NCBI GenBank assembly: GCA_963741955.1
Contig: CAVUKB010000005.1
Span: forward strand, 388,994-452,993
DNA: 64,000 nt
DNA from: an uncultured Acidobacteriota bacterium
Lineage (GTDB): Bacteria; Acidobacteriota; Thermoanaerobaculia; Gp7-AA8
Direction of reading: 5' to 3'
Positions 31,262 to 64,000 of this stretch are shown here, one piece after another; position 1 is the stretch's first letter, and every line of letters starts with the position of its first letter. A model generated the notes under the pieces. That model was not told where the DNA came from. It searched no databases and saw only the letters and a program-made list of their open reading frames with translations. The translations under genes and the position numbers were made by a program.

Positions 31262-32875
31262 ATGGCGGATCGGGCGGCGGAAACGGAAGAACGACTCAGC
31301 GAGATCCTCAATCTCTTCTCGCGAAAAATCGGATCGACAAAAGGTGCGCTCTACGCCACACCTGGCGGAAAGGATCCCTACGAGCTGGTGACCTGGTACG
31401 GCTTCGCGTCGACTCCGCGGCGCCAGGTCAGCCGGAGCGACCTGATCGTCAACCGCCTCAACACACGACGGTCCGCTTTCTGGGTCAACGGCGCTTCGAG
31501 CGATCCACGCCTGTACGAGCTGCTGTTTCACAGCGGGACCGACTCCATTCTCGTGGTTCCGATCTATCTCCAGAACCAGCTCGTCGGCTTCTTCGATCTC
31601 CGCGACAAAGCGGGAGGAGAACCGTTCGGGAATTCCGATCTCCCCCACGCGCGGGAGATCATCGAACAGATTCTTCCTCTTCTCTCACGCGGGGTTGTGA
31701 CTTCCTCATCCGGCAACGACAGGACCGCTTTGGCTGCAGCGCCCCCGGTGGATGAGGTGGCCGCACGCGAAGACGTGCTCCGCAGGACGATCCAGAAAGC
31801 GCATACGATCGCAGACCGCGATCTCGCGCCGCACCGGGCTACGACCCGCACTCTCTCCGAAGCCGAGATCATGTCCATCGTTCCGGCACTCTCGCCTCTC
31901 CTTCAGCTCTCCGGCGTCTCGATGGCCGTATTCACCGCGTTCGGACATCTCGGCAATATTCAGCAGATCATCTCCCGGGCGTCGATCACCGACGAGGCGA
32001 TGCGCGGATTCGAGCAGAAACTGAAGAACTGGATCCGGAAGCACTGGAACCTGAAGATCTCCGACACCACCCGATCGACGGTGACTCTCCCGTTCGGCGA
32101 ATCCGGGCCGAAGGTCCAGCCTGCGCACATCGGCACGGTGCTCAGCGCCGCCGTCGAGGTGAATGGAATTCCTGGTCTGGTCCTCAGCGTCGGATTCGAG
32201 ACTGCGCCCAGCCGCCAGACCAAAGCTGCTCTCGCGCTCAACCTCGAGCTCGTGCAGCAGATGCTCCACTACTCACTTTCCCATCTGCGGATGCGCACTG
32301 CGAATCAGAAGATCGCGGAGCGCCTCCTGGAGCCGGACTTCCGCCGCTATCCCCGTCTGGCGGATCACTCCATGCGGGTGGCGATGCTCGCCGAACAGTT
32401 CGCGCAGTATCTCGACCTCTCGGCCGCCGAGATGGAGAACATCCGGCTCGCGGCATATCTCCACGACGCCGGAATGCGCCTTCTCGACTACGACCGGCTC
32501 TACGAGAAGCCCTCTTTCAACGATGACGACCGCCGTCTCGTGCGAGAGCACCCGGTACTCGGCGCGGCGTTGATCGCCGAATCAGCCCTCGGAGAAGAAA
32601 TCGCGCGGGTCGTCCTCCACCACCACGAACAGCCGGACGGAAAAGGGTATCCTCACGGACTGACCGGAGAGCAGATTCCTCTCGGATCACGCATTCTCCG
32701 GATTTGCGAAACGTTCGACGCGATGACCTCTCACCACTCGTACCACGAGCCGGTTCCCGAGAGCGCCGCGCTCGCCAGCATCGTCCGGCTTGCCGGAGCG
32801 GAGTTCGAGCTCGACCTCGCCCACAAGTTCAACGAGATGCTCGTCAGGGCGTCTACCTTCGGAATGAACACCTGA
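31262..32875 (+). CDS. HD-GYP domain c-di-GMP phosphodiesterase with N-terminal GAF-like sensor domains
   Basis: The C-terminus has HD...HHHEQPDGKGYPHGL, the HD-GYP signature. Confidence 0.8.
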   Translation: MADRAAETEERLSEILNLFSRKIGSTKGALYATPGGKDPYELVTWYGFASTPRRQVSRSDLIVNRLNTRRSAFWVNGASSDPRLYELLFHSGTDSILVVPIYLQNQLVGFFDLRDKAGGEPFGNSDLPHAREIIEQILPLLSRGVVTSSSGNDRTALAAAPPVDEVAAREDVLRRTIQKAHTIADRDLAPHRATTRTLSEAEIMSIVPALSPLLQLSGVSMAVFTAFGHLGNIQQIISRASITDEAMRGFEQKLKNWIRKHWNLKISDTTRSTVTLPFGESGPKVQPAHIGTVLSAAVEVNGIPGLVLSVGFETAPSRQTKAALALNLELVQQMLHYSLSHLRMRTANQKIAERLLEPDFRRYPRLADHSMRVAMLAEQFAQYLDLSAAEMENIRLAAYLHDAGMRLLDYDRLYEKPSFNDDDRRLVREHPVLGAALIAESALGEEIARVVLHHHEQPDGKGYPHGLTGEQIPLGSRILRICETFDAMTSHHSYHEPVPESAALASIVRLAGAEFELDLAHKFNEMLVRASTFGMNT

Positions 32876-33127: not shown

Positions 33128-35917
33128 CTAACCTGCCTTCAGCTGTTCTTCGAAGATCTCGCCCGGCGCGGGTCGCGCGAAAAGAAATCCCTGACCGTAC
33201 TCGCACTTCATCATCTTCAGCATGGCCAGCTGTTGTTCGGTCTCGATTCCTTCGGCGATGACCTCGAGGTTCATGGCGTGTGCAAGGGCGATCACGGTCC
33301 GGACGATCTCCGCACTCTCGGGGTTCGCGATCATGCTGCCGACGAAGGAGCGATCGATCTTCAGTCCGTCCACACGGAACCGATGCAGGTAGCTGAGCGA
33401 TGAATAGCCGGTGCCGAAGTCGTCGATGGTGATCTTCAACCCGAGGTCGCGAAGACTGACCAGCACGCGCGCTGCGCCATCGGGATCGCGCATGATCGCG
33501 CTCTCGGTGATCTCGAGGTGAAGCGAGCCGGGATCGACGTCGCATTGCCCGAGCTGCTCGCCGAGCTCCGCGGCCAGGTCAGGAGCGGTGAGCTGCATCG
33601 CGGAGAGATTGAGGCTCATGGTCAAGGGAGGATCGGGGTGGAATCGATGCTCCCATTCGTGCAGCGTGCGGCACGCTTCCCGGAAGACCCACCGGCCGAT
33701 CCTGGCGATCAGACCCGTCTCTTCGGCGAGAGGAATGAACTCGTCCGGCATCACGATGCCCCGGGTCGGATGCACCCAGCGGATCAGCGCCTCGAAACCG
33801 ACGATGTGTGAGGTGGCGAGATCGACGATCGGCTGGTAGTTCAGGCGAAACTCGTCCCGGTCGACCGCCCGTCGCAGCTCCGTCTCGAGCTCGAGCAGCT
33901 GTACCGCGCTGGCGTGCATGGTCTTTTCGAAGACCACCGACCGCGCTTTGCCGAGCGACTTGGCGCGGTACATCGCGGTGTCCGCATCGCGAATGACGTC
34001 CTCGGGCTTTTCGTATTCCGGTCCTCCGGGGGCGATCCCGATACTCGCAGTGATCGAGTACTGTCGGTCTTCGTCGTGGAATGGCATCCGCAGGACTTCC
34101 TGGACTCTTTCCGCGATCTGCAGGGCTTCGGTCTGGCTGTGAAGATCTTCGAGAAGGATCGTGAATTCGTCTCCCCCGAAGCGCGCCAGCGTATCGCCTT
34201 CCCGCACCAGCGACGCCACTCGTTGAGAGACCTGCTTGAGAAGCCGGTCGCCGGTGTCGTGTCCCAGACTGTCGTTGATCACCTTGAAGCGATCGAGATC
34301 GAGGAACAGAACCGCAAACCCGATCTTGTGTCGTCGTGCACGAGTGATCGCCACCGCCAGGCGGTCCAGAAAGAGGGGGCGGTTCGGCAGAGTGGTCAGC
34401 GGGTCGTGATACACCTCGTGCATCAGTTGATCTTCGGCGACCTTCGCTTCGGTGATGTCGGTCTGAGAGCCGGCCATCCGGACCGGGATGCCTCTTTCGT
34501 TCAGGACGGCGAGGCCGCGGCAGAGCATGAAGCGATAGCCGCCCTCTTTCTGCCGCAGCCGGTACTCGCTCTCGAAGTGGGGCGACTCCGACTGCAGGTG
34601 CGCCGAGATGCGCGCCTGCACCCGCTGAACGTCTTCGGGGTGAATCCGCTCGAACCAGACCTCGGGAGTCGAGCCGAGCTCCTCGTCGGAGTAGCCGATC
34701 ATCGCTTTCCATCGCGGCGAGAAGTACAACTCCCCCGTCACCAGGTTCCAGTCCCAGAGGCCGTCGTTGGCGCCGGCGGCAGCGAGAGCGTATCGCTGCT
34801 CGCTCTCCTTCAGCGCGGTCTCCGCTTCGATTCGCTGCATCACCTCGTGCTGCAGATCGCTCACCACGCGCTGGAGATCCGCGGTTCGGTCGGCGACCCT
34901 CTTTTCGAGATCGTCTTTCATCCCTTCGAGCTCGGCACGCGCACGACTGAGCTGCTCATTCAGAACGAACAGTTCTTCGTTGCCCGCCTGGAGCTCGTCG
35001 AGCTTGTCCAGAAATGCGCTCTCGATCTGCGCCCGGTTGAGAAGCGCGAGCTTCGCTCCGTCCAGAAGATGATCGGGAAGAAGCCGTATGATCGCAGGGA
35101 ATCCGTCGAGATTCACGTACGAGCTCGCGAGCGCGTCGTAGCTGGCTTCGAACGTGCGGTCCGCGAGCTCTTCACCGGTCAGATGCGCGAGCCGCGTGTG
35201 CAGGGCCGCCGAGAGGTCGGCCAGAAGCATGGTCCAGCCACGGGGAGTCCCCGGAATCGCGCGGTCCGGCAGCAACTCGCACGGAACACTCACCTCCGGG
35301 ATCGAGGAGACCCATTGGGAAAGTCCCTCCAGAGCGCCGCCCCTGCTGCCGAGCAGATCCGCGGCTCTCTCGAGGACATTCACGAGGAACCGACGGGCCA
35401 GATCCAGCTCCTGCGCCGGCCGATCCTGAAAGATGATCCCGAAACGAGGGATTTCCAGGAGATCGGGAAAACGTGAGGCCACGAGCTCGCGCAGCTGCGC
35501 CTGGTCGAATCGATGGGACGGATCCGCCTGCACCAGGTACTGCTCGAGAAGGAGGTAGAGCGAAGGAAGCTCTTCACGCCGCCGCGAGATGGGAAGCCGG
35601 CGGAACGCAGCCACGCGCAATCGGGCGACCTCGGCGCTTCTGGGCGAAGTCATCTGACCGACGAGAAAGTCGACCAGATCCTTCACGTCGCGGTCGTCGT
35701 CCGTCCCCGTCGTCGCCGCGACTCGCGACCGCCAGAACCGCAAACTCTGCATCAACCCCATACCACGTCCACCCCGATCGATCCGCGCGAGCGATTGCAG
35801 GTTCCGTCCGGACCACCCGGGAGTCGCTCGCGACGTACATCCTGCCCACAGGTTAACTCCGATACGCAGCGAAAAGGAGCGGTTTCTTCCCACGGTTCGG
35901 CGAAGCCCGACGGTCAC
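33128..35917 (-). CDS. Multidomain c-di-GMP turnover protein: N-terminal sensor region, coiled coil, PAS, GGDEF and EAL
   Basis: RFGGDEFTILLEDL (GGDEF) and FEALIRWVHP plus downstream EAL motifs. A PAS region (DGLWDWNLVTGELYFSPRW). The start may be the internal MGLMQSL at about 35761. Confidence 0.85.
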   Translation of the reverse strand: MTVGLRRTVGRNRSFSLRIGVNLWAGCTSRATPGWSGRNLQSLARIDRGGRGMGLMQSLRFWRSRVAATTGTDDDRDVKDLVDFLVGQMTSPRSAEVARLRVAAFRRLPISRRREELPSLYLLLEQYLVQADPSHRFDQAQLRELVASRFPDLLEIPRFGIIFQDRPAQELDLARRFLVNVLERAADLLGSRGGALEGLSQWVSSIPEVSVPCELLPDRAIPGTPRGWTMLLADLSAALHTRLAHLTGEELADRTFEASYDALASSYVNLDGFPAIIRLLPDHLLDGAKLALLNRAQIESAFLDKLDELQAGNEELFVLNEQLSRARAELEGMKDDLEKRVADRTADLQRVVSDLQHEVMQRIEAETALKESEQRYALAAAGANDGLWDWNLVTGELYFSPRWKAMIGYSDEELGSTPEVWFERIHPEDVQRVQARISAHLQSESPHFESEYRLRQKEGGYRFMLCRGLAVLNERGIPVRMAGSQTDITEAKVAEDQLMHEVYHDPLTTLPNRPLFLDRLAVAITRARRHKIGFAVLFLDLDRFKVINDSLGHDTGDRLLKQVSQRVASLVREGDTLARFGGDEFTILLEDLHSQTEALQIAERVQEVLRMPFHDEDRQYSITASIGIAPGGPEYEKPEDVIRDADTAMYRAKSLGKARSVVFEKTMHASAVQLLELETELRRAVDRDEFRLNYQPIVDLATSHIVGFEALIRWVHPTRGIVMPDEFIPLAEETGLIARIGRWVFREACRTLHEWEHRFHPDPPLTMSLNLSAMQLTAPDLAAELGEQLGQCDVDPGSLHLEITESAIMRDPDGAARVLVSLRDLGLKITIDDFGTGYSSLSYLHRFRVDGLKIDRSFVGSMIANPESAEIVRTVIALAHAMNLEVIAEGIETEQQLAMLKMMKCEYGQGFLFARPAPGEIFEEQLKAG

Positions 35918-47173: not shown

Positions 47174-47704
47174 ATGCCCATACGTGGAGATCTGAAGAGC
47201 ATGCACGTAGGCGAACTGCTCGTGTGGATCGGACAGTTTCACAAGAGCGGCATGCTCGAGCTCCGCACCGCTGAGGGAGTGCACTCACTGGCCTTCGAAC
47301 AGGGAAACCTGATCTTCTCCGCCTCGCCAACCGAGGAAGGAACTCTCGGCCGGCTCCTGATCGAGCGGGGCGCGGTGAGCGAAGAGGAATACCAGAACGC
47401 GAGGGACGAGAGAGAGAGGCGATCCGTCGCCGTCGCGAAGATCCTTCGCGATCTCCAGCTCCTTTCGGAGGAAGATGCGATTCGATTCCTGAGGAAGAAG
47501 GCAGAGAAGGAGCTCTTCACTCTGCTCCAATGCACCGACGGCGAGTTCTGCTTCGACGAGTCGATCATGCCGCAGCTCGATCTGCTTCCTCTCAGGCTGG
47601 ACCTCGACGGCGTGCTTCTCCGGGTCACGCAACACATCGATGAAAAAGGTGAGTATGATTTCGACTCGTCCGGGATCCACGTACGGCTCCCGAAAGAGAG
47701 GTAA
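47174..47704 (+). CDS. DUF4388 domain protein
   Basis: MPIRGDLKSMHVGELLVWIGQFHKSGMLELRTAEGVHSLAFEQGNLIFS... matches the DUF4388 N-terminal pattern. Confidence 0.6.
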   Translation: MPIRGDLKSMHVGELLVWIGQFHKSGMLELRTAEGVHSLAFEQGNLIFSASPTEEGTLGRLLIERGAVSEEEYQNARDERERRSVAVAKILRDLQLLSEEDAIRFLRKKAEKELFTLLQCTDGEFCFDESIMPQLDLLPLRLDLDGVLLRVTQHIDEKGEYDFDSSGIHVRLPKER

Positions 47705-48902: not shown

Positions 48903-50522
48903 TCACTTCTTCGCTCCGGCCTTCGTCAGCAGCTTCACGTTCTCGGTGCAGTTCATCGCTCCGGCCATCATCAGCGCCGACGCACCGCCTGCGGACTTCG
49001 CATTCGGGTTCGCGCCCGCGTCCAGAAGCGCTTTGACCAGATCCGTCATCCCACATCTCTGGGATGCCCAGATCAGAGGGGTCGATCCGTTCTCGTCCTT
49101 CGCATTCACGTCTGCGCCCGCCTTGATCAGGAAGACCCCGAGCGCGGGATCCGAGAGCGTCGACGCCGCAAGCAGAGGCGTCGTCGCGTGATCGATCGAG
49201 CTCTTCGAGTTCACGCTCAGGCCGTAGTCCAGAAACGCCTGCGCCGCTTCGAAGTTTCCCTCGTGCGCACTCGCCACGAACTGATCCTCGGTGAGCTCCC
49301 GGTATCCGAGCTCGTCGAGCTTCGCGGCCGCGGCTTCCTTCTGTTCGGCCGAGACCACTCGCTGCGCCGCAGCCTTCTTCACCGGAGCGGCCTTCCCACC
49401 GAGGAGCGCAGCGACATCCGGATGATCGGACGACCATTTCGCGGCGGTCCGTCCCACCCGGTCCTTGATCTTCGGATCGGCGCCGGCTGCGAGAAGTCTC
49501 TGGACGACGTCGGCGTAACCAGCCTTCGCAGCCTGCATGAGAGGCGTATAGCCATCGGGCTTCGAGCGGACATTCACGTCCGCCTTTGCCGCGATCAGCT
49601 TCGCGACCGCGCCGTCGTGTCCTTCTTCGGCCGCCGCGAGAAGCGCCGTCTTCCCGTCATACGTGGTGCGGGCGTTGACGTCGGAGCCCGAAGCCAGGAG
49701 CGCTTCGACCGCTGCGGTGATCGCGGACTCCTCGACGTGGAACGACTCCATCCTGCTCCGCGGGATCCCGGCCATCGCAATCAGTGCCGTCCGTCCGGTA
49801 TTCGACTCCTTTGCCTTCACGTCGGCTCCGGCTTCGAGGAGGAGTCGCACCGATTCCGTCTCTCCCCCGTCCGCCGCGGCGATCAGAGGAGTGGTACCGT
49901 CGGCGTTCGGCGTATTCAGGTTCGCTTTGGCCGCGATCAGTACCGGTGTGGTGCTGCGTCCATACGAAGCGGAAAGAAACAGCGGCGTCTCGCCCTTCCC
50001 ATTCGGCGCGTCGACCCTGGCGCCGGCGTCGAGGAGGACCTTCAGCCGTGCCGGCTGATCCGCGATCACCGCTTCGTGCACGATCGTATTGCCGTCTTCG
50101 TACACCGTTTCGAGGCTGGCTCCGGCGGCGACGAGCAGCGGCGTGGCGTTGGCTCCGATCTGCCCGCTGTGGATGTCCGCGAACAGCGGGGTCTTGCCGT
50201 CCTGGTCCGCCAGGTTGACGCTGGCCTTCGCCTTCAGAAGCATCGCGACGAGTTTCGCATTGTCATCGTCCGCGGCCTCGAGCAGCGGCGTCCGTCCGGA
50301 CGAGTCGCGCGAGTCGGGGTCCATCCCGGCTTTCAGAAAGAGCTCGACCGCTTTTGCGTCACCACTGTCCGCGACGCTGACCATCTCCGCGGGAGTGAAG
50401 TCGTGTCCCATCTTCTGCAGTTTCTTGCGGGCGGATGCAGCCTCGTCGGCCAGCACCGCCGGGGCTCCGACGATGAATAGAGCGAGAACGAGCGCGCAAA
50501 CGCGGGACGTACGTGACGTCAT
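48903..50522 (-). CDS. Secreted ankyrin-repeat protein (about 13 ANK repeats)
   Basis: Signal peptide MTSRTSRVCALVLALFIVGAPAVLA. Repeated G-TPL--A---G----V--LL--GA motifs. Start at an internal ATG. Confidence 0.75.
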   Translation of the reverse strand: MTSRTSRVCALVLALFIVGAPAVLADEAASARKKLQKMGHDFTPAEMVSVADSGDAKAVELFLKAGMDPDSRDSSGRTPLLEAADDDNAKLVAMLLKAKASVNLADQDGKTPLFADIHSGQIGANATPLLVAAGASLETVYEDGNTIVHEAVIADQPARLKVLLDAGARVDAPNGKGETPLFLSASYGRSTTPVLIAAKANLNTPNADGTTPLIAAADGGETESVRLLLEAGADVKAKESNTGRTALIAMAGIPRSRMESFHVEESAITAAVEALLASGSDVNARTTYDGKTALLAAAEEGHDGAVAKLIAAKADVNVRSKPDGYTPLMQAAKAGYADVVQRLLAAGADPKIKDRVGRTAAKWSSDHPDVAALLGGKAAPVKKAAAQRVVSAEQKEAAAAKLDELGYRELTEDQFVASAHEGNFEAAQAFLDYGLSVNSKSSIDHATTPLLAASTLSDPALGVFLIKAGADVNAKDENGSTPLIWASQRCGMTDLVKALLDAGANPNAKSAGGASALMMAGAMNCTENVKLLTKAGAKK

Positions 50523-50694
50523 CCGGCACCTCCAGTTCGATTCCAGGGAATGCGAGAGCGTAAACCTGCGCCCGGCGTAAATCAATCGAAATTCACGAGC
50601 TGACCCCCACCACTCCCGAATTTCCGATGTTTCCGCTTCTCCAGCGCCGTACCACCCGGAGCGGGTGAGCCGGCGATCGGCCGCATTCCGCATC

Positions 50695-53492: not shown

Positions 53493-54905
53493 CTACGAAG
53501 TGGCGTACTGGACAGCCATTTCGGGGGTGACAGCGGATTTCGAGCGCTTCAGGTGTCGTGCGACGGGGGTCTGGAAGTCGGTGAAATTGGGGGGTTCGAA
53601 GTTGCGGATGTGGCGAATGCAGGCGGATCGCATCGCGCGAAGGTACTGGCCGGTGGGTATTCGCCACTGATCGGGGATATCGTTGTCTCTCCACTTGGGC
53701 ATCAGTTCGGGGGGCGCAGTGGAGCCGAGGCCGAAGCAATCGGCGGCAGCGAGGAGCATCATCGAGTAGACGGCTACGGCGAAAGCGGGCAGCGAGTCGA
53801 CCGATCGCCGGTTGCGCACCTGCGCCTGGCCGACACCGAAGATCTGCTTTTCGTCGCGGTGATTGACCTCGATATCCCAGCGGCGGAAGTAGGCTTGGAC
53901 GAGCTCGACGAGCGAGAGTTTCAGGTCGGTACAGATCAGGAACGCCGGTTTGCGATACAGCAGGCGTGATTTCTTGCGGAGCCGATAGCCCAGTGGCCGG
54001 ATCACGACGAGCCGCAGAGGCAGTTCATAACCCGAAGTTTTCCAAAGCACGGGACCGATGGTCTTGATCGAACAGGCGTGTTCACGACCCGAGGCCCAGA
54101 CTTGGACCTGTTGCCAGTCGATGGATTGGTCCACGCGGAGTTGATCGGGTGTTGGGGCCTGATCGCCATACCAGCGCTTGCGTCCGCGAAGCGGTTGAGA
54201 GTTTGGAGGAAAGAACAGCTTCGCGTCGCCTCGGATGCGACCGATCAGGATCGTTCGTTCCGGCAAGTTCCGCAGAACCGTACGGTTGGTGTAACCGCCG
54301 TCAACCACCGGCATCAGCACGCGCTCGCTCGCTCCGAGCTGGTCAAAGTCCTTGCGAGTTTGGATCAGCAGACGCGTTGCACCGATGGAAAGATTCTGCT
54401 CTTTCTGCTGGCGACGATACTCGGCACGTTCCTGCTCGGTTGCTCCGGCCCCCGGGCGAACCGCCGGAGGCTGGTGATTGAACCGGATCGGGAAGCTGCG
54501 CGCCGGACCGGCAGACTGGCCAGTTAAAGGAACACTGATCGCAGCCTGAATGAACCGTTGGGCGCGGATCAAGTTCGTGTGGAAAGGCGGCGACATCGGA
54601 TCGCGCTGATAACTCACGCCTGGGATCTTCATGCCCGTCTTGCGCAACTTCGTGTCATCCAGCGGCAGCACCAGCGGTGCGTCGAGCGGCAAGTACGCGA
54701 GCAGGTGTCGTTCGATGACTCTGAACATCTCGCTCACATCGAACCGACCCTCCGAGAAAACGCGATAGTCTGCCGACCAGTCCTGCTGCGGATCGCGGCC
54801 TGCTTCAATCATTCCGCTTACCGTGTGTCGCCCGGTGCAGTTGAGCAGGCCGATGGCCAACCCACGAACCCGCTGAAGCACCCGAGCATCACAGGATCCA
54901 TTCAA
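53493..54905 (-). CDS. DDE transposase, IS4-like (YREK signature)
   Basis: 470 aa with VDGGY and YFRRWDIEVNHRDEKQ (Y-x2-R-x3-E-x6-K). Confidence 0.8.
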   Translation of the reverse strand: MNGSCDARVLQRVRGLAIGLLNCTGRHTVSGMIEAGRDPQQDWSADYRVFSEGRFDVSEMFRVIERHLLAYLPLDAPLVLPLDDTKLRKTGMKIPGVSYQRDPMSPPFHTNLIRAQRFIQAAISVPLTGQSAGPARSFPIRFNHQPPAVRPGAGATEQERAEYRRQQKEQNLSIGATRLLIQTRKDFDQLGASERVLMPVVDGGYTNRTVLRNLPERTILIGRIRGDAKLFFPPNSQPLRGRKRWYGDQAPTPDQLRVDQSIDWQQVQVWASGREHACSIKTIGPVLWKTSGYELPLRLVVIRPLGYRLRKKSRLLYRKPAFLICTDLKLSLVELVQAYFRRWDIEVNHRDEKQIFGVGQAQVRNRRSVDSLPAFAVAVYSMMLLAAADCFGLGSTAPPELMPKWRDNDIPDQWRIPTGQYLRAMRSACIRHIRNFEPPNFTDFQTPVARHLKRSKSAVTPEMAVQYATS

Positions 54906-58636: not shown

Positions 58637-59623
58637 ATGGTCCCATCCTTGTTCGGACTTCTGGATTCATTTCCAGCGGTAGAGGTGGTGCGTTTTCTGG
58701 TCGCCCGCGCGATGTCGGGGACGCTCTCCATTGCCTCCGGCGGCGGATTCGAGATCGTGTTCCGTCGCGGCCGCATCGTCGCTGCGTCCTGCCGCGGAGA
58801 GAACGCGGCCTCGGCTGCCGCGGAGATCGCGATTCGCGCGATGCTTCAGTGGACCGGAACGTTCTCGTTCGCAGATTCGATCGGCGATCCCGCCGGCTCC
58901 GTCGATCTCGATCCCGCCCAGTTGATCGCCACGGTGGAGGAACGCATCGATCAGAGCGTCCACTACCCGGCCGGCTCCGTCTTCCTTCTCGCCCGCGACA
59001 TCGAAACGGACGAACGATTCACGGCCGGAGAAGTCCGGGTTCTGCGGGAGCTCGACGGGACGCGTCCGATCGAGGAGGTGATCCGGGAGAGCGGTCTCGC
59101 GAGCGACGAGGCGGCCGCAATCGTTGCATCGATGGTCCGCAGAGGATGGCTGATCTCCCGGCAGGGCTCGAAGATGAAGCTTCCCGCCGCACGACCTTCG
59201 GATTCCCCCGCTCCTGATCGGGCGGGCGTTCCACGTCCCCCCACCGAGGAGATGCCGGCACCTGCGGGATCGGCCGGGCCCGCCGAACCGAGCTCACGGG
59301 CGCCATTTCTCGCCTGTTTCACGCTCGACAATACCGCGAGCACGTCGTTCCCTCTCTTCGACGAGAGCTGCACGATCGGACGGAGCTCCAGGAATACGAT
59401 CCAGCTCGATGACCCGAGCGTCTCCTCTTCGCATGCCCGCATCACGGCCACCGCCGATGGGCATCTCCTCGAGGACCTCGGGTCGAGCAACGGGACGTTC
59501 GTCAACGGCCGGAAGATCAGGACGGCGTCGCTGCGCGACAAGGACCGCATCCGGATGGGCGCGGTCTACATGGTCTACATGATTCCCGAAGTCCATCGAC
59601 CCGAGAGCGAGCCTCGCCCATGA
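58637..59623 (+). CDS. DUF4388 domain plus C-terminal FHA domain protein
   Basis: N-terminus LLDSFPAVEVVRFLVARAMSGTLSIASGGGFEIVFRRGRIVAAS (DUF4388-like). C-terminus CTIGRSSRNTIQLDDPSVSSSHARI...GSSNGTFVNGRKI (FHA). Confidence 0.65.
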   Translation: MVPSLFGLLDSFPAVEVVRFLVARAMSGTLSIASGGGFEIVFRRGRIVAASCRGENAASAAAEIAIRAMLQWTGTFSFADSIGDPAGSVDLDPAQLIATVEERIDQSVHYPAGSVFLLARDIETDERFTAGEVRVLRELDGTRPIEEVIRESGLASDEAAAIVASMVRRGWLISRQGSKMKLPAARPSDSPAPDRAGVPRPPTEEMPAPAGSAGPAEPSSRAPFLACFTLDNTASTSFPLFDESCTIGRSSRNTIQLDDPSVSSSHARITATADGHLLEDLGSSNGTFVNGRKIRTASLRDKDRIRMGAVYMVYMIPEVHRPESEPRP

Positions 59624-62022
59624 CGGAGCTCGATCTCATCATCGTCGGCTCCGGACCCGCAGGATTGAGCGCTGCGTCTCACGCCGCGAGCAACGCTCTT
59701 CGCTACGTGGTCCTCGAGCGAGCTCCACACATCGCCGACACCATCCAGTGCTATCAGGCGCGCAAGTACGTGATGGCCGAGCCGATGGTCATCCCCGGGC
59801 GCGGCGATCTCCCGTTCGAGGCGGGCTCGCGCGAGTCGATCCTCGACGCATGGAGTGTCCACTGTCGCGATCGCACGCTCCACATCGAGTTCGGAAAGGA
59901 AGTTCAGTCGATCGAGCGCGGCTCGTCCGGATTCACGGTCCGCACGAAGGACGGCGGAAGCTGGGCGGCCCCGAACGTGATCCTCGGCGTCGGCACGCAG
60001 GGATCTCTGCGGAAGCCGAACGTCCCGGGCGAAGATCTCCCCCACGTTTTCTATCGACTGGCCGACCCGTCCGATTACAGCGATCAGGATCTCGTCGTGG
60101 TCGGTGCAGGCGATTCCGCGCTCGAGATCGCACTCGCGCTCGCCGACGAGAACCGCGTCAGCCTGGTCGTCCGCTCGTCCGAGATCGTCCGGGCGAAGGA
60201 GAGCCTCACCCGCGAGGCACTGAGTCGCGAAGCGAGCGGACGGATGACGATCTACTTCAGCGCGACTCTGCACAACATCGAGCCGGGATTCACCGATCTC
60301 GACGTTCGCGGAGAGATCGTCCGTGTTCCCGCACAGGCTCTCTTTCTCAAGCTCGGAGCGGTCGCACCACGGAAGTTTTTCGAGTCGTGTGGCATCGAGT
60401 ACAGCGGGAAAGATCGCGACGCCATCCCTCTCCTCTCGGAGCACTACGAGACGAGCGTTCCGGGCCTCTATCTGATCGGCGCGGCAAGCGGACGCGATCT
60501 GATCAAACTCGGGATGAATCAGGGATGGGAAGTCGTCGAGCACATCCTCGGGCACGAGGTCGAACCCGCCGACGAAGCGGTGCTGCGGGAGAGAGTTCCC
60601 TTTCTGGAAGGAACCGTCCACCAGAGGATCGGACAGCTCAGAGAAAAGATTCCGCTATTCGCGGCCGCCGAGGTCGAGCAGATCCGCGAGATGCTGCTCG
60701 CGACGGAGTTGCGGGAGTTCACGAACGGGCAGACCGTCATCCGGCAGAACGATTACACGAACGAGTTCCTGGTGATCGCGAGCGGCCGGGTCGAGGTCCT
60801 GGTCCGGAGCGAGGAAGGCGTGGAGAGCCGGGTCGCCGAGCTGACCGCGGGGAACTTCTTCGGCGAGATGAGTCTCATCTCGGGACGTCGCCGGAGTGCG
60901 ACGGTGAATGTGGTCGGCCCGGCGAAGATCTTCGCCATTCCGCGAAAAGCCATGCTGAAGCTGATCCGCACTTCGCCCGCAGTGCGCGATCTGGTCGATC
61001 GCGCATTCCTGATCCGGGCGATTCAGGGCTACCTCTTCCCGAATGTCTCCACCGCACGGCTGGGAGAACTGGTCGGACGTGCCGAGCTCCTCTCGCTCCC
61101 GAAGGGTCACGCGGTGTTCTACGAGGGCGCCGAAGGAGACGCGTTCTACCTCATCCGGAATGGAATGGTGAAGATCGCCCGCAAGTCGGGTGATCGGGAG
61201 CTCGTTCTCTCCTATCTCGTCGCAGGCAACTTCTTCGGAGAAACGGCACTCCTTTCGAACCAGCCGCGGACTGCGACCGTCACCACGATCTTTCCCTCCG
61301 ACCTGATTCGCCTCAGCCGCGACGATTTCCAGTCGTTCCTCGCGGCCAATCCTCAGTTCCGCGCCGACCCGATGAAGAAGCTCGAGGAGCGACGGATCGG
61401 CGCTCTCGTCGCCGATGCGACACCGGGAGCGGGGAACGTTCTGAGCGATCTGATTCGCGAAGAAGTGGTGATGGGGACGGACACCCTGATCATCGACGAG
61501 CATCTCTGCATCCGCTGCAGCAACTGCGTCCGCGCGTGCGAGGGCGTTCACGATGACGGTCAATCGCGGCTCTCGCTCACCGGCATTCGTCTGTACAACG
61601 TCCTCGCACCGAACTCCTGCTGGCAGTGCGAGAACCCTCTCTGCATGCTCGACTGCCCGCCGGATGCGATCGCGCGCGACCCGCGAGGAGAGGTCTACAT
61701 CCGGAGCAACTGCATCGGATGCGGAAACTGCGAGTCGAATTGTCCCTACGGCAACATCTTCATGATTCACCCCAAACCGAAGTGGGATCCATTCGGCTGG
61801 GTCAAGTCACTCTTCGCCCGCGCTGCGGGAAGATCGGCCGACGGCAACGGCGGCGAGCACGGCATCGAGCGGACTCTCGCCGTGAAGTGCGATCTCTGTC
61901 GCGACCTCGGCAGCGGACCGGCATGCGTGCGGAGCTGTCCCACCGGTGCCGCGCTGCGTCTCACGCCGCAGGAGTATCGCAGCACGCTGGAGGAGATCGT
62001 GATCACCAGAGGAGATCGCTGA
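59620..62022 (+). CDS. Multidomain redox/sensor protein: thioredoxin-reductase-like FAD/NAD(P) oxidoreductase, then two cNMP-binding (CAP effector) domains, then a 4x[4Fe-4S] ferredoxin module
   Basis: IIVGSGPAGLSAA and VVVGAGDSALE (dinucleotide folds). Two GNFFGE(M/T)(S/A)L cNMP-pocket motifs. Four Cys clusters: CIRCSNCVRAC, CWQCENPLCMLDCP, CIGCGNCESNCP, CDLCRD...CVRSCP. ATG overlaps the upstream stop. Confidence 0.75.
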   Translation: MTELDLIIVGSGPAGLSAASHAASNALRYVVLERAPHIADTIQCYQARKYVMAEPMVIPGRGDLPFEAGSRESILDAWSVHCRDRTLHIEFGKEVQSIERGSSGFTVRTKDGGSWAAPNVILGVGTQGSLRKPNVPGEDLPHVFYRLADPSDYSDQDLVVVGAGDSALEIALALADENRVSLVVRSSEIVRAKESLTREALSREASGRMTIYFSATLHNIEPGFTDLDVRGEIVRVPAQALFLKLGAVAPRKFFESCGIEYSGKDRDAIPLLSEHYETSVPGLYLIGAASGRDLIKLGMNQGWEVVEHILGHEVEPADEAVLRERVPFLEGTVHQRIGQLREKIPLFAAAEVEQIREMLLATELREFTNGQTVIRQNDYTNEFLVIASGRVEVLVRSEEGVESRVAELTAGNFFGEMSLISGRRRSATVNVVGPAKIFAIPRKAMLKLIRTSPAVRDLVDRAFLIRAIQGYLFPNVSTARLGELVGRAELLSLPKGHAVFYEGAEGDAFYLIRNGMVKIARKSGDRELVLSYLVAGNFFGETALLSNQPRTATVTTIFPSDLIRLSRDDFQSFLAANPQFRADPMKKLEERRIGALVADATPGAGNVLSDLIREEVVMGTDTLIIDEHLCIRCSNCVRACEGVHDDGQSRLSLTGIRLYNVLAPNSCWQCENPLCMLDCPPDAIARDPRGEVYIRSNCIGCGNCESNCPYGNIFMIHPKPKWDPFGWVKSLFARAAGRSADGNGGEHGIERTLAVKCDLCRDLGSGPACVRSCPTGAALRLTPQEYRSTLEEIVITRGDR

Positions 62023-62023
62023 G

Positions 62024-62863
62024 GTGCCGGTCCGGAGACATGCAGGCCGCTGGCAGCTGATCTCGGCGCTTCTTCTCGCCGCACTGCTCGGCTCATACGT
62101 CTGGTACGAGCAGCGCGAGCCGTTCACCCATGGCGGATCGACGATGGGTCTGATCTACGGAATCGTGGCGCTCGCGCTGATGGGCCTCCTTCTCTGGTTC
62201 GGCATCCGGAAGCGCTCCTACCGAAGCCGCTTCGGCACGCTCGAGGAGTGGCTGCAGTCGCACATCTATCTCGGCCTCTTCACGTTTGCGGTGGTGATCG
62301 CGCACACCGGATTCCAGTTCCGCGATCGGATGGCGATCGCGCTCCTGATCGTGGTCACTCTGGTGATCGCCAGCGGAATCCTCGGCGCGATTCTCTACAA
62401 GACGGTGCCGCGTCTGCTCACCGAGGTCGACTCGAATCTTCCTGCGGACGCGATGTCGGAAGAGATGAACCAGCTGACGCGATCGATGTCGCGGGCCGCA
62501 TCGGGCAAGTCGGCCCCGTTCCAGCGCATTTACAAACGGCTGGTGCAGGAAGCAATCCCTCCTCCTCTCGCGGGATGGCGTCTCCTGCTCCGTTCTTCGA
62601 ACCGACGGAATCCCACCACTCGTCCGGACGACTGGTCGTCATTCCTGGGGATGGTTCCGGAAGACGAACAGGCGGAGCTGCGACAGCTTCTGGTGCTCTC
62701 ACGGCAGCAGAAGGAACTGCAACTGCGCCTGGTTGCACAGCAGAAGTACCGTAACCTGCTCGATTTCTGGCTCTACATGCACCTCCCTCTTTCCATCGCC
62801 ATGATCCTCCTGATCATCGCGCATCTGTGGGGCGTGTTCTATTACGGCAAAATCCAGTTCTGA
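62024..62863 (+). CDS. Hypothetical polytopic membrane protein (about 5 TM)
   Basis: GTG start 1 nt after the upstream stop. Hydrophobic segments. No recognisable family. Confidence 0.5.
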   Translation: MPVRRHAGRWQLISALLLAALLGSYVWYEQREPFTHGGSTMGLIYGIVALALMGLLLWFGIRKRSYRSRFGTLEEWLQSHIYLGLFTFAVVIAHTGFQFRDRMAIALLIVVTLVIASGILGAILYKTVPRLLTEVDSNLPADAMSEEMNQLTRSMSRAASGKSAPFQRIYKRLVQEAIPPPLAGWRLLLRSSNRRNPTTRPDDWSSFLGMVPEDEQAELRQLLVLSRQQKELQLRLVAQQKYRNLLDFWLYMHLPLSIAMILLIIAHLWGVFYYGKIQF

Positions 62864-62872
62864 GGAATCGGC

Positions 62873-64000
62873 GTGTCCTTTCTGCTTCAGAAGATCGACC
62901 GGCCCAGAGTCACTCTGGTCGAGGTGAAGTCGCCCCGATTGACGATCGGGCGAGGCACGGGTGCGGACCTTCGATCCGAAAACGCCGCGGTGGCGCTCGA
63001 GCACGCGGTCGTCGAACTGAGGAAGGATGCCGGATACGAGATCTTCGACCGGGGGAGCATCACCGGGACGTACGTGAACGGGCGTCCCATCGAGAGCCGG
63101 CTCCTCGCGGCAGGCGATCGGATCGAGATCGGCGACCTGGTGATGGACGTCCAGGTTGCGGCGGCGGATCGTCCCCTCTTCCTCCGCGTCGAGAAAACGC
63201 GGGAAGAGAACGAAGCTCCGCTTCAGACCGGCGCGGCGGACGAGCGTCCCGTCTTCCTCACCGGAGCGCGGGTCGGAGCGCCTCGGATTGACTTCTCCCG
63301 CGCCTACGCACTGCGCCAGGGCTTTCTGTCGAAAGGTGGAATGGTCTTCTCCCTGATGGCCCTCACGGCGATTCTCGTTGCGGCGGCGATCATCGGTGCG
63401 AAGGGCCTCGCCTACCAGCCCGGGCCGATCTCCGTCGCGCACGCGACGGCGACCCGACCCGATGGCGAGCGCGTCATCGGCGAACACGAGTGCAACGCGT
63501 GTCACGTTCCCTTCGGAGGAGCGAGCAACCACAAGTGCGGCGAGTGCCACGAGCAGTCGTTCCACCAGGCGAGAGAAGCGAAGGTCGGCCCGTGCATCGA
63601 CTGTCACGCAGAGCATCGCGACGTCCCGAATCTCGCGATGGTCCAGGCACAGCAGTGCGTTCGATGTCATCGGAATCTCGAGGGGAGCTCCATCACCGCG
63701 AAACGAACCATCACCGCGTTCGAGACCGACCATCCCGAATTCACGATCCGGCTGGCGAGCGGAAAGAACGAGGCGGTCAACACCGCGACGGCTCGTACCG
63801 CGGATGCGATTCCACTGAAGTTCAACCACCAGTGCCACCTTCAGGGAAAGTGCAATCTCACTCCGCCCACTGCGAGCGACCCGAGACGGGAGAAGGTCGA
63901 GCTTCACTGTGTCTCCTGCCACACTTTCGATCCGCAGACCGGAGCGGCCCAGCCGGTCCGGTACGAGACCGCATGCTCGAAATGTCATCCGCTCACGTTC
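62873..64000 (+). CDS. FHA domain, single TM helix, then a multihaem c-type cytochrome (at least 6 CxxCH); 3' end lies beyond the window
   Basis: GTG start. Open through the window end, so it is absent from the ORF track. FHA: LTIGRGTGADLRSENAAVALEHAVVEL...GSITGTYVNGRPI. TM: MVFSLMALTAILVAAAIIGA. Haem motifs: CNACH, CGECH, CIDCH, CVRCH, CVSCH, CSKCH. Confidence 0.7.
   Translation, partial: MSFLLQKIDRPRVTLVEVKSPRLTIGRGTGADLRSENAAVALEHAVVELRKDAGYEIFDRGSITGTYVNGRPIESRLLAAGDRIEIGDLVMDVQVAAADRPLFLRVEKTREENEAPLQTGAADERPVFLTGARVGAPRIDFSRAYALRQGFLSKGGMVFSLMALTAILVAAAIIGAKGLAYQPGPISVAHATATRPDGERVIGEHECNACHVPFGGASNHKCGECHEQSFHQAREAKVGPCIDCHAEHRDVPNLAMVQAQQCVRCHRNLEGSSITAKRTITAFETDHPEFTIRLASGKNEAVNTATARTADAIPLKFNHQCHLQGKCNLTPPTASDPRREKVELHCVSCHTFDPQTGAAQPVRYETACSKCHPLTF

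What the first reader, a model, noticed from the sequence alone, without database searches (positions are those of the whole stretch)
59620..62022. 800-aa fusion: TrxR-like flavoprotein, two CAP-type cNMP-binding domains and a tetra-[4Fe-4S] ferredoxin module
An NAD(P)H/FAD oxidoreductase is coupled in cis to two cyclic-nucleotide sensor domains and four Fe-S clusters. This suggests that electron delivery is controlled by cyclic nucleotides. It is probably the electron donor for the downstream cytochrome. The two cNMP pockets both retain the GNFFGE motif and the R/S/A phosphate-binding positions.
Basis: partly seen in the sequence, partly recalled or inferred. Interest (0 to 1): 0.6.

Follow-up and report, generated by a model that had tools for sequence, protein, structure and literature searches.

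The report
Cyclic-nucleotide-gated flavin/iron-sulfur electron-input protein
This 800-residue protein joins an NAD(P)H-type flavoenzyme, two cyclic-nucleotide sensor domains and a four-cluster iron-sulfur wire. It is always encoded next to a putative two-haem membrane protein and a ten-haem cytochrome, so it most likely feeds cytoplasmic electrons across the membrane under second-messenger control, a widespread module that nobody has tested.

Summary
ORF 59620-62022 (+) encodes 800 aa with four parts:
- a YpdA/TrxR-fold flavoprotein without redox cysteines
- two PKA-R-like cNMP-binding domains with canonical phosphate-binding cassettes
- a HydN/HycB-like module with 16 invariant Cys, enough for four [4Fe-4S] clusters

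The window comes from a Thermoanaerobaculia MAG (Acidobacteriota). Thousands of full-length homologues exist there and in Nitrospirota, Gallionellaceae, Magnetococcales and Gammaproteobacteria. All are annotated only generically.

The cytochrome is not the direct neighbour. A 279-aa, five-helix membrane protein lies between them. It has four His that are invariant across phyla, in two pairs 13 residues apart. An FHA-TM-decahaem cytochrome c follows. This trio is syntenic in 70/70 and 56/57 related loci with room. In Magnetococcales the first two proteins are fused into one.

My best reading is a gated, NOX-like route: NAD(P)H, then FAD, 4×[4Fe-4S], haems b and multihaem c. cNMP and phosphothreonine-binding (FHA) domains would control it. 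Cofactor content and partnership are well supported. Direction and gating are inferred.

Related clusters appear in three papers without a function: ptd, the Ferrigenium nonahaem cytochrome (NHC), and a Gallionellaceae pangenome cytochrome table. I rate it a new variant of a known kind, of moderately high interest.

The parts
58637..59623 (+). Upstream gene: 328-aa PATAN (DUF4388/PatA_N) + FHA protein. Its stop overlaps the target's start by 4 bases.
   Evidence: Pfam gives FHA E 5.5e-21 and DUF4388 E 1.4e-9. It is named PatA_N. An FHA-containing gene lies within 1.5 kb upstream in 53/71 related loci with room.
59620..62022 (+). Target ORF, 800 aa: flavoprotein, then CNB-A, CNB-B and a 4×[4Fe-4S] module.
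   Evidence: The exact protein is P0001 from a Thermoanaerobaculia MAG.
59632..60495 (+). FAD/NAD(P)H two-Rossmann flavoprotein domain (aa 5-292). It carries GSGPAG (FAD) and GAGDSA (NAD(P)H) motifs and has no conserved Cys.
   Evidence: Pyr_redox_3 E 6.8e-35. Foldseek best matches are Bdr/YpdA 7a7b/7apr, target-normalised TM-score 0.73-0.75, followed by TrxR-type FNRs 3ab1 and 8c3m. The glycine motifs are conserved in about 40/46 divergent homologues. Cys44/82/257 are not conserved.
60712..60972 (+). cNMP-binding domain A (Pfam core aa 365-451). Phosphate-binding cassette GNFFGEMSLISGRRRSAT at aa 411-428 (nt 60850-60903).
   Evidence: cNMP_binding E 2e-43 over two stretches. The cassette is invariant in 48 close homologues. 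R425 is kept in 28/46 divergent homologues.
61030..61392 (+). cNMP-binding domain B (aa ~471-591). Phosphate-binding cassette GNFFGETALLSNQPRTAT at aa 536-553 (nt 61225-61278).
   Evidence: CRP-like hit over aa 480-587. The tandem pair aligns with the PKA-R/PKG tandem CNB domains. R550 is kept in 33/46 divergent homologues.
61483..61977 (+). Four-[4Fe-4S] ferredoxin-like module (aa 622-786), with 16 Cys in four motifs.
   Evidence: Fer4_7/9/10/11 hits. HydN and AegA-N-terminus hits. HycB3 7qv7_A and HycB 7z0s_B. All 16 Cys are present in 46/46 sequences.
62024..62863 (+). 279-aa membrane protein with five predicted TM helices and a roughly 120-aa cytoplasmic helical insert. His pairs H80/H94 and H253/H267 mark it as a putative dihaem cytochrome b.
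   Evidence: The four His are invariant across Acidobacteriota, Nitrospirota, Gallionella and Magnetococcales. Below-cutoff Pfam hits: Ferric_reduct in 32/45 members, Ni_hydr_CYTB in 26/45, DUF4405 in 11/45. The AF2 model has pLDDT 81. Downstream synteny is 70/70. It is fused to the target-like protein in P0131.
62873..64000 (+). 5' part of an 811-aa gene: N-terminal FHA, TM helix, periplasmic 10-haem cytochrome c, second TM helix, Pro/Ser/Thr-rich linker, C-terminal FHA. The window cuts it off.
   Evidence: The translation shows FHA, a TM helix and CxxCH motifs. The full gene is in the same genome, L081 7499-9934, with 10 CxxCH and two FHA domains. Synteny is 56/57.

Best explanation
The 800-aa protein is the cytoplasmic electron-input and control subunit of a conserved three-part transmembrane electron-transfer module.

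Proposed electron path:
1. NAD(P)H reduces the FAD of the N-terminal domain. This domain has the YpdA/TrxR fold but no thiols.
2. Electrons pass down the C-terminal chain of four [4Fe-4S] clusters.
3. They move to two b-type haems stacked across the membrane in the adjacent five-helix protein, ligated by H80/H253 and H94/H267.
4. They reach the periplasmic ten-haem domain of the FHA-anchored cytochrome c.
5. In this lineage they probably continue to further secreted multihaem and outer-membrane proteins encoded downstream.

Proposed control:
- The two PKA-R-like cNMP-binding domains sit between the flavin and the iron-sulfur wire. cAMP or cGMP binding would reposition the wire relative to the flavin or the membrane partner, switching electron flow on or off.
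- FHA domains on the upstream PATAN protein and at both ends of the cytochrome would add phosphothreonine-dependent control.

What is shown and what is inferred:
- Shown: the domain and ligand content, their conservation, and the obligate genomic partnership, including gene fusions.
- Inferred: haem b binding, the outward direction, cNMP gating and the final acceptor.
For: Conservation of cofactor ligands:
- The 16 Cys are invariant in 46/46 divergent sequences and the dinucleotide motifs are conserved.
- Both phosphate-binding cassettes are canonical and invariant in the window's clade.

Gene organisation:
- The genes are translationally coupled: a 4-base overlap at 59620-59623, a 1-base gap at 62023 and a 9-base gap at 62864-62872.
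- No + strand terminator-like site lies inside the cluster.
- Synteny is 70/70 for the membrane protein and 56/57 for the FHA-multihaem cytochrome.
- The same trio occurs in Nitrospirota L078, Gallionella L083, Magnetococcales L084 and gammaproteobacterial L085.

Fusions linking the parts:
- P0131, P0406 and P0407 join the target-like protein to the membrane protein.
- P0136, P0134 and P0222 join FHA domains to the target-like protein.

Membrane protein: four His are invariant across phyla, in two pairs 13 residues apart on TM3 and TM5. Members repeatedly give below-cutoff hits to Ferric_reduct, Ni_hydr_CYTB and DUF4405.

Direction (my reasoning from bioenergetics, not a tool result): moving electrons from the inside to the outside is helped by the membrane potential and is downhill from NAD(P)H. 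The reverse is uphill on both counts. An unregulated short-circuit of this kind would waste reductant and depolarise the cell, which would explain the heavy regulation, as in eukaryotic NOX.
Against: - There is no experimental evidence for any member of the family.
- Haem b binding rests on a His pattern and on Pfam hits below their cutoffs. Foldseek and a PDB profile search of the membrane protein found nothing.
- The AF2 model of the target is poor over the Fe-S module (pLDDT about 30, pTM 0.52). Flavin-to-cluster distances and domain packing therefore could not be assessed.
- The phosphate-binding cassette arginines are lost in many divergent lineages: 18/46 for CNB-A and 13/46 for CNB-B. 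cNMP control is therefore not universal in the family.
- No nucleotide cyclase or Ser/Thr kinase is conserved nearby, and none lies in the window.
- Many homologues are in Fe(II)-oxidising Gallionellaceae. Authors working on that group have proposed inward electron flow for the cytochrome (10.64898/2026.01.22.701106).
Confidence: 0.55

Rival explanations
1. Redox-sensing or signalling device rather than a bulk electron pathway. The periplasmic multihaem domain would report external redox state. The flavin/Fe-S protein and FHA domains would convert that report, together with cNMP levels, into a phosphorylation-dependent cellular response.
For: The load of signalling domains is unusual: two CNB domains, three FHA domains and a PATAN domain across three proteins. 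The proteobacterial loci sit among PAS/GGDEF/histidine-kinase or chemotaxis genes. The Ferrigenium cluster was expressed in all tested conditions (10.64898/2026.01.22.701106).
Against: A sensor does not need a four-cluster wire plus two membrane haems plus ten c-haems, and all of these ligands are invariant. No output domain such as a kinase, a DNA-binding domain or a cyclase is fused or conserved nearby.
Confidence: 0.15
2. Reverse operation. Electrons taken up in the periplasm (for example from Fe(II) via the cytochrome) would be delivered inward to reduce NAD(P)+ or another cytoplasmic acceptor.
For: The family is abundant in Fe(II)-oxidising Gallionella, Sideroxydans and other Gallionellaceae. 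The Ferrigenium preprint proposes the nonahaem cytochrome as an inward wire.
Against: Inward electron movement works against the membrane potential, and Fe(II) to NAD(P)+ is strongly uphill. No pmf-coupling or bifurcating component is evident among the conserved genes (reasoning from established bioenergetics). The window's clade is Thermoanaerobaculia, which I do not know to be an Fe(II)-oxidising lineage (my knowledge, not tested here).
Confidence: 0.1
3. NAD(P)H:quinone oxidoreductase. The dihaem membrane protein would reduce or oxidise quinone, as FdnI or HyaC do, and the cytochrome would be a separate NapC/CymA-like quinol dehydrogenase that merely shares the operon.
For: Below-cutoff Ni_hydr_CYTB hits in 26/45 members. 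The pairing of a four-cluster Fe-S subunit with a dihaem b subunit recalls formate dehydrogenase-N and hydrogenase (established knowledge). The Ferrigenium authors note NapC/NirT-like architecture.
Against: No quinone-site motif was identified. The cytochrome's haems are all outside the membrane and its anchor is a single helix preceded by an FHA domain. Strict three-way synteny and fusions across phyla point to one complex.
Confidence: 0.1
4. A soluble, self-contained cNMP-regulated enzyme, such as a ferredoxin-type NAD(P)H oxidoreductase or a disulfide reductase. The neighbours would be functionally unrelated.
For: The best sequence and fold matches of the N-terminus are Bdr/YpdA and TrxR-type FNRs. 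The protein has no TM segment.
Against: The redox cysteines are absent. Ala replaces YpdA Cys14, there is no CxxC, and the N-terminal Cys are not conserved. Synteny with the membrane protein is 70/70 and the two are fused in Magnetococcales.
Confidence: 0.05

Closest known systems
ptdABCDEFG cluster (PtdC FAD/NAD(P) oxidoreductase, PtdE cNMP-binding + 4Fe-4S protein, PtdF ferric-reductase-like membrane protein, PtdG decahaem), bioRxiv 10.1101/2023.11.21.568154
   Same: It contains the same set of parts: an NAD(P)-flavoprotein, a cNMP-binding Fe-S protein, a ferric-reductase-like TM protein and a decahaem cytochrome. Porin and extra multihaem genes lie nearby. Its function is unknown too.
   Different: Here PtdC-like and PtdE-like parts are one polypeptide. 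Split forms of about 470 aa and about 330 aa exist elsewhere in the family. The preprint does not report FHA domains. It describes PtdE as having two 4Fe-4S clusters, whereas four are encoded here. I could not test sequence homology to the Ptd proteins.
Nonahaem cytochrome (NHC) cluster of Ferrigenium straubiae (bioRxiv 10.64898/2026.01.22.701106) and 'forkhead-associated' 10-haem cytochrome cluster 403 of Gallionellaceae (PMC10734462)
   Same: It is a trio of a [4Fe-4S] protein, a five-TM protein and a cytochrome with a cytosolic FHA domain. Gallionella locus L083 has exactly this trio, including a 795-aa full-length homologue of the target and a 9-CxxCH cytochrome.
   Different: Those authors found no redox motif in the TM protein and proposed inward flow to quinone. 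They did not discuss the flavin and cNMP domains of the Fe-S protein. The Thermoanaerobaculia cytochrome has a tenth haem, a second TM helix and a second FHA domain.
NADPH oxidase / ferric-reductase-domain superfamily (NOX, SpNOX; PMC11031084)
   Same: The logic is the same: a cytoplasmic NAD(P)H flavoenzyme feeds two His-ligated haems stacked across the membrane, under tight regulation. The His pairs are 13 residues apart on two helices. Ferric_reduct hits occur in 32/45 members.
   Different: The dehydrogenase has a TrxR fold, not an FNR fold. A four-cluster Fe-S wire is interposed. The membrane protein has 5 predicted TM helices rather than 6. The acceptor is a multihaem cytochrome, not O2. 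The Pfam score is below cutoff (20.4 against 28).
Four-cluster ferredoxin-like subunits paired with dihaem cytochrome b (FdnH/FdnI, HybA, HycB/HydN)
   Same: The 16-Cys, four-[4Fe-4S] module is the same (HycB3 7qv7_A E 6e-15; HydN), and it is coupled to a dihaem membrane subunit.
   Different: The module here is cytoplasmic and fused to a flavoprotein and sensor domains. It has no molybdopterin or hydrogenase partner. NCBIfam scores are far below the equivalog cutoffs.
AegA/YgfT-type proteins (HydN-like four-cluster domain fused to an NADPH flavoprotein)
   Same: The Fe-S wire and a pyridine-nucleotide flavoprotein are in one chain. The AegA N-terminus hits aa 624-786 at 66.9 bits.
   Different: The domain order is opposite, the flavoprotein family is different (GltD-like), there are no CNB domains, and the score of 66.9 is far below the cutoff of 1003.
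PKA regulatory subunit / PKG tandem CNB-A/CNB-B
   Same: A tandem pair of CNB domains with canonical Gly-Glu ... Arg-Ser/Thr-Ala cassettes. These are the best PDB matches for aa 340-575.
   Different: The pair is inserted into a redox enzyme instead of regulating a kinase. Ligand specificity is unknown.
Bdr/YpdA bacillithiol-disulfide reductase and TrxR-type ferredoxin-NADP+ reductases
   Same: The fold and both dinucleotide-binding motifs match (target-normalised TM-score 0.73-0.75 to 7a7b/7apr).
   Different: YpdA Cys14 is replaced by an invariant Ala14. The TrxR CxxC is absent. The YpdA HMM scores 128 against a cutoff of 339.9.

Membership tests
Thioredoxin-disulfide reductase (TIGR01292) | Two-Rossmann FAD/NADPH fold | tested here: met
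   Pyr_redox_2/3 hits. Foldseek hits to TrxR-like proteins.
Thioredoxin-disulfide reductase (TIGR01292) | Redox-active CxxC in the NADPH domain, and HMM score at or above the cutoff | tested here: not met
   The only Cys in aa 1-600 are C44, C82 and C257. None forms a CxxC and none is conserved. The score is 69.4 against a cutoff of 343.45.
YpdA/Bdr bacillithiol-disulfide reductase (TIGR04018) | Conserved active-site Cys in the N-terminal GGGPCG motif (Cys14; recalled from the literature), and HMM score at or above the cutoff | tested here: not met
   The motif here is GSGPAG, with an invariant Ala14. The score is 128 against a cutoff of 339.9. The fold is nevertheless the closest match.
TrxR-type ferredoxin/flavodoxin-NADP+ reductase | TrxR fold lacking the CxxC, passing electrons to an Fe-S or flavin protein | tested here: inconclusive
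   The fold is similar to 3ab1, 2zbw and 8c3m and the CxxC is absent. The C-terminal FAD-stacking subdomain and dimer interface were not assessed.
CAP/PKA-type cyclic-nucleotide-binding domain (PF00027) | Score above the gathering cutoff, and a phosphate-binding cassette with Gly-Glu and Arg-Ser/Thr-Ala, in both copies | tested here: met
   146.7 bits against a cutoff of 27.5, in two stretches. The cassettes are GEMSLISGRRRSAT and GETALLSNQPRTAT and are invariant in the clade. Ligand binding itself cannot be tested here.
HydN/HycB-type four-[4Fe-4S] ferredoxin module | Sixteen Cys in four CxxCxxC...CP-type motifs | tested here: met
   Spacing read from the sequence. Cys are present in 46/46 sequences. 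PDB matches are HycB3 and HycB. Equivalog cutoffs are not reached (HydN 55.4 against 260), so this is a module match, not orthology.
Ferric-reductase-domain / dihaem cytochrome b superfamily (for the neighbouring 279-aa protein) | Two His pairs on two TM helices able to ligate two stacked haems | tested here: met
   H80/H94 and H253/H267, 13 residues apart in each pair, are invariant across four phylum-level lineages.
Ferric-reductase-domain / dihaem cytochrome b superfamily (for the neighbouring 279-aa protein) | Pfam gathering score, six-TM topology, or fold match to a solved member | tested here: not met
   Ferric_reduct scores 20.4 against 28 and Ni_hydr_CYTB 25.9 against 30.1. Even so, 32/45 and 26/45 members give below-cutoff hits. 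Five helices are predicted. Foldseek and PDB-profile searches found nothing.
ptd / NHC-type gene cluster | Co-encoded cNMP-binding Fe-S protein, FRD-like TM protein and nona/decahaem cytochrome | tested here: met
   compared with the descriptions read.
ptd / NHC-type gene cluster | Sequence homology to the published Ptd/NHC proteins | not testable with these tools
Homology to Gallionella proteins was shown, but not to the Ferrigenium or UBA11136 entries themselves.
Porin-cytochrome extracellular electron conduits (Mtr/Pcc type) | Outer-membrane beta-barrel plus periplasmic and extracellular multihaem cytochromes | tested here: inconclusive
   Downstream in the same genome lie a 684-aa signal-peptide protein ending in ...TVKF, with no Pfam or PDB hit, and a cytochrome of at least 1228 aa with at least 10 CxxCH. 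The L001 homologue hits MtrC/MtrF_II-IV at 26.7 bits, below the cutoff of 30. These genes are conserved in 45-51 Thermoanaerobaculia loci but are absent in the proteobacterial loci.

The most novel reading that the evidence does not exclude
The trio is a quinone-independent, second-messenger-gated route that exports electrons from cytoplasmic NAD(P)H straight to periplasmic multihaem cytochromes. In Thermoanaerobaculia it would continue to an outer-membrane/extracellular conduit. It would be a prokaryotic counterpart of NADPH oxidase that reduces a cytochrome wire instead of O2, switched by cAMP/cGMP and phosphothreonine. To my knowledge, all characterised Gram-negative extracellular electron-transfer pathways start from quinol dehydrogenases, so this would be a new entry point and the first cNMP-gated electron-transfer chain.
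Probability: 0.4. Interest if true: 0.8.

Novelty: new variant of a known kind. Interest (0 to 1): 0.62.

Why it matters
- If the reading is right, many soil and sediment bacteria have a regulated way to pass reducing power across the inner membrane without the quinone pool. These include Thermoanaerobaculia, Nitrospirota, the iron-oxidising Gallionellaceae and Magnetococcales.
- That would change how electron budgets, metal cycling and redox balancing are modelled in these largely uncultured groups.
- It would give a function to a 'nonahaem/decahaem FHA cytochrome' that recent papers list as unexplained.
- It would provide the first example of cyclic nucleotides acting directly on an electron-transfer chain.
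- The module has only three genes and exists in cultured Sideroxydans and Gallionella relatives, so the hypothesis can be tested directly.

Tried and rejected
- **Fold and sequence searches for the membrane protein.** Foldseek against PDB gave a best E of 0.34 to an unrelated helical sensor. A profile against PDB sequences found nothing. Membership of the FRD superfamily therefore stays unproven.
- **Full-length AF2 model.** The CNB domains are good and the flavoprotein moderate, but the Fe-S module is essentially unmodelled (pLDDT about 30, pTM 0.52). I drew no conclusions on inter-cofactor distances or on how the CNB pair contacts the other domains.
- **Search for a cognate cyclase or Ser/Thr kinase.** None lies in the 64-kb window (Pfam scans). 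None is among the ORFs conserved within ±10 kb of 80 related loci. A Guanylate_cyc gene 8 kb away in Gallionella L083 is not conserved, and I treat it as coincidence.
- **Upstream genes.** The sulfatase, amidohydrolase and DDE transposase upstream are not syntenic with the cluster.
- **Promoter and terminator scan.** It was uninformative: no promoters, and terminator-like sites at the chance level and on the opposite strand.
- **Literature.** Six full-text searches found no functional study of this architecture.
- **Rejected readings.** A disulfide-reductase function, because no conserved Cys is present. A transcription-factor (CRP) reading of the CNB domains, because no DNA-binding domain is present.

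Full report
**1. The observation**

The ORF is real and sits exactly where stated: 59620-62022 on the + strand, with an ATG start and 800 codons. Its third-position GC of 0.79 is typical of the window's genes.

Pfam and NCBIfam give four modules:
- A complete Pyr_redox_3/Pyr_redox_2 flavoprotein at aa 5-292 (E 6.8e-35). The best NCBIfam model is YpdA.
- Two cNMP_binding domains (E 2e-43 over two stretches).
- A C-terminal region (aa 622-786) that matches HydN and the N-terminus of AegA.

PDB sequence searches and a Foldseek search of an AF2 model agree. The N-terminus is closest to bacillithiol-disulfide reductase Bdr/YpdA, with a target-normalised TM-score of 0.73-0.75, and then to TrxR-type ferredoxin-NADP+ reductases. 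Residues 340-575 align with the tandem CNB-A/CNB-B of PKA regulatory subunits and PKG. The C-terminus matches the four-cluster subunits HycB3 and HycB. No solved chain covers the whole architecture.

- GNFFGE occurs at aa 411 and at aa 536. The cassettes are GEMSLISGRRRSAT and GETALLSNQPRTAT.
- Sixteen cysteines form four CxxCx(2-8)Cx3C(P) motifs.

**2. What it is not**

The flavoprotein has the fold of thioredoxin reductase and YpdA but not their chemistry. The only cysteines before residue 630 are C44, C82 and C257. None forms a CxxC and none is conserved. The position of the YpdA active-site cysteine is an invariant alanine (GSGPAG). HMM scores are far below the curated cutoffs: 128 against 340 for YpdA and 69 against 343 for TrxR. 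It is best seen as a thiol-free NAD(P)H:FAD module that hands single electrons to iron-sulfur clusters, as TrxR-type FNRs do. The GAGDSA motif followed by conserved R185 and R191 suggests NADPH. This is inference only.

**3. How common it is**

The exact protein is in public data from a Thermoanaerobaculia MAG (GCA_049580305.1) under the name 'cyclic nucleotide-binding domain-containing protein'.
- More than 2,600 homologues scored E ≤ 1e-10. The top 120 are all about 790 aa with full coverage at 64-78% identity.
- 336 of the 185,579 species-representative genomes encode a relative.
- An exhaustive search of 1.8 billion cluster representatives found 929 with E ≤ 1e-30. About 45 of these are full-length representatives at 30-56% identity.
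- Named members come from Nitrospira, Pseudomonadales, Gallionella, Sideroxydans, Rhodocyclaceae, Gammaproteobacteria and Magnetococcales.
- Split versions also exist: CNB×2 + Fe-S of about 470 aa, and the flavoprotein alone at about 330 aa.

Across the divergent full-length set all 16 Cys are invariant and the dinucleotide glycines are kept in about 40/46. The cassette arginines are kept in only 28/46 (CNB-A) and 33/46 (CNB-B). In the window's own clade both cassettes are invariant.

**4. The neighbourhood changes the picture**

The gene belongs to a tightly packed, same-strand cluster:
- The upstream 328-aa PATAN(DUF4388)+FHA gene overlaps the target's start by four bases.
- One base after the target's stop, a 279-aa membrane protein begins (62024-62863).
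- Nine bases later the cytochrome gene starts (62873) and runs off the window.

The same genome's contig (L081) supplies the rest. The cytochrome is 811 aa and consists of an N-terminal FHA, a TM helix, a periplasmic domain with 10 CxxCH, a second TM helix, a Pro/Ser/Thr-rich linker and a C-terminal FHA. Three more genes follow:
- a double HbpS-like protein
- a 684-aa signal-peptide protein ending in ...TVKF, with no Pfam or PDB match
- a secreted protein of at least 1228 aa with at least 10 CxxCH

Among 80 related loci the membrane gene follows the target in 70/70 with room, the FHA-cytochrome in 56/57, and an FHA gene precedes it in 53/71. The three further genes are conserved in 45-51 loci. 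The sulfatase, amidohydrolase and transposase upstream are not conserved.

The core trio recurs in distant lineages:
- Nitrospirota (L078)
- Gallionella (L083)
- a gammaproteobacterial MAG (L085)
- Magnetococcales (L084)

In the proteobacterial loci the cytochrome has nine haems and one FHA domain.

Gene fusions tie the parts together. In Magnetococcales the target-like protein and the membrane protein are one chain of 1110-1136 aa (P0131, P0406, P0407). Other lineages fuse one to three FHA domains to the target-like protein (P0136, P0134, P0222).

**5. The membrane protein**

It is annotated as hypothetical almost everywhere. AF2 gives a confident helical model with pLDDT 81. It has five hydrophobic helices and a helical cytoplasmic insert of about 120 residues between helices 4 and 5.

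Four histidines are invariant across Acidobacteriota, Nitrospirota, Gallionella and Magnetococcales at about 25-35% identity. These are H80 and H94 on helix 3 and H253 and H267 on helix 5, 13 residues apart in each pair. That is the geometry needed to hold one haem near each membrane face, as in the ferric-reductase/NOX and cytochrome b561 families.

Members repeatedly give below-cutoff hits to Ferric_reduct (32/45), Ni_hydr_CYTB (26/45) and DUF4405 (11/45). From memory, these Pfam families belong to the same two-haem cytochrome clan. Foldseek and PDB-profile searches found nothing. I therefore call it a putative, divergent dihaem cytochrome b and do not claim family membership.

**6. Proposed mechanism**

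The parts line up as a wire:
1. NAD(P)H
2. FAD
3. four [4Fe-4S] clusters (roughly 40 Å of reach in HycB-type proteins; established knowledge)
4. the cytoplasmic-side haem b
5. the periplasmic-side haem b
6. the ten c-haems
7. in this lineage, probably further secreted cytochromes

I favour the outward direction on bioenergetic grounds. Electron movement from inside to outside is assisted by the membrane potential and is downhill from NAD(P)H. Inward flow to NAD(P)+ from periplasmic donors such as Fe(II) would be uphill in both redox and electrical terms, and no energy-coupling component is conserved.

Such a route bypasses the quinone pool, wastes reductant and depolarises the cell. That offers a reason for the exceptional regulatory load. 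The PKA-R-like tandem CNB pair is inserted exactly between the flavin and the Fe-S wire. In PKA, cNMP-driven movement of the CNB helices changes what the regulatory subunit contacts. Three FHA domains suggest additional control by Ser/Thr phosphorylation.

None of this is shown. It is the reading that best fits the anatomy, the conservation and the fusions.

**7. Weak points**

- No biochemical data exist for any member of the family.
- The AF2 model is unusable for the Fe-S module and for domain packing.
- The cNMP pockets have decayed in many lineages.
- No cyclase or kinase is linked to the cluster.
- The abundance of the trio in Fe(II) oxidisers keeps an inward-flow or sensing role alive.

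**8. Comparison with the literature**

Three papers touch related clusters without assigning a function:
- The ptd operon of marine Alphaproteobacteria lists PtdC (FAD/NAD(P) oxidoreductase), PtdE (cNMP-binding, 4Fe-4S), PtdF (ferric-reductase-like TM protein) and PtdG (decahaem) (10.1101/2023.11.21.568154).
- The Ferrigenium straubiae study describes a nonahaem cytochrome with a cytosolic FHA domain next to a five-TM protein and a '[4Fe-4S] protein'. It found no redox motif in the TM protein and states that FHA-multihaem combinations had not been reported (10.64898/2026.01.22.701106).
- The Gallionellaceae pangenome lists a 10-haem 'forkhead-associated protein' under 'other' (PMC10734462).

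No paper I found discusses the following points:
- the fused 800-aa architecture
- the invariant His pairs
- the fusions with the membrane protein
- the regulatory logic

**9. Verdict**

The protein is an ordinary member of a large, uncharacterised family. The system it belongs to combines known modules (NOX-like dihaem membrane transfer, a HycB-type wire, a PKA-type switch, FHA domains, a multihaem cytochrome) in a way that no characterised system does. I rate it a new variant of a known kind, interest 0.62.

Noticed in passing
L081 10051-16648 (same genome, just beyond the window's end); homologues at L001 15600-22380: Three more conserved same-strand genes follow the cytochrome: a double HbpS-like protein (573 aa), a 684-aa signal-peptide protein ending in ...TVKF with no Pfam or PDB match (possibly an outer-membrane barrel), and a secreted protein of at least 1228 aa with at least 10 CxxCH and a faint LVIVD hit. 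They are conserved in 45-51 of 80 Thermoanaerobaculia loci but absent from the proteobacterial loci.
   Followed up: partly
L081 9200-9500 (aa ~615-715 of the 811-aa cytochrome): A linker of about 100 residues, rich in Pro, Ser and Thr (TPSPAAPSPPLSSPSTPSPAASSPAAPSPAAPSPATSSP...), joins the second TM helix to the C-terminal FHA domain. It is a plausible multi-site Ser/Thr phosphorylation target for the cluster's own FHA domains.
   Followed up: no
P0408 (1458 aa): A relative in which the flavoprotein + CNB×2 unit is duplicated in tandem ahead of a single Fe-S module.
   Followed up: no
window 53493-54905 (-): A 470-aa DDE_5 transposase ORF (E 1.4e-16) lies 3.7 kb upstream of the cluster. The genes between it and the cluster (amidohydrolase, sulfatase) are not syntenic in related genomes, so the region upstream of 58637 looks locally rearranged.
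   Followed up: partly
window 47174-47704 (+): A second, stand-alone PATAN/DUF4388 protein (176 aa, E 5.6e-19) is followed by a 183-aa ORF with no Pfam hit. It has the same domain as the N-terminus of the cluster's upstream FHA protein.
   Followed up: no
window 33128-35917 (-) and 31262-32875 (+): A PAS-GGDEF-EAL protein (929 aa) and an HD_5 (HD-GYP-like) protein, both c-di-GMP signalling genes. No cAMP or cGMP cyclase was found anywhere in the window.
   Followed up: no
window 48903-50693 (-): A 596-aa protein with strong ankyrin-repeat hits (Ank_2 E 2e-57), unusual for a bacterium.
   Followed up: no
window 62024-62863, residue H36: A fifth histidine, in the HGG motif of the first periplasmic loop, is invariant within the close Thermoanaerobaculia homologues aligned. 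It is replaced in other lineages, while the GG is universal. It may be a lineage-specific contact with the cytochrome.
   Followed up: partly
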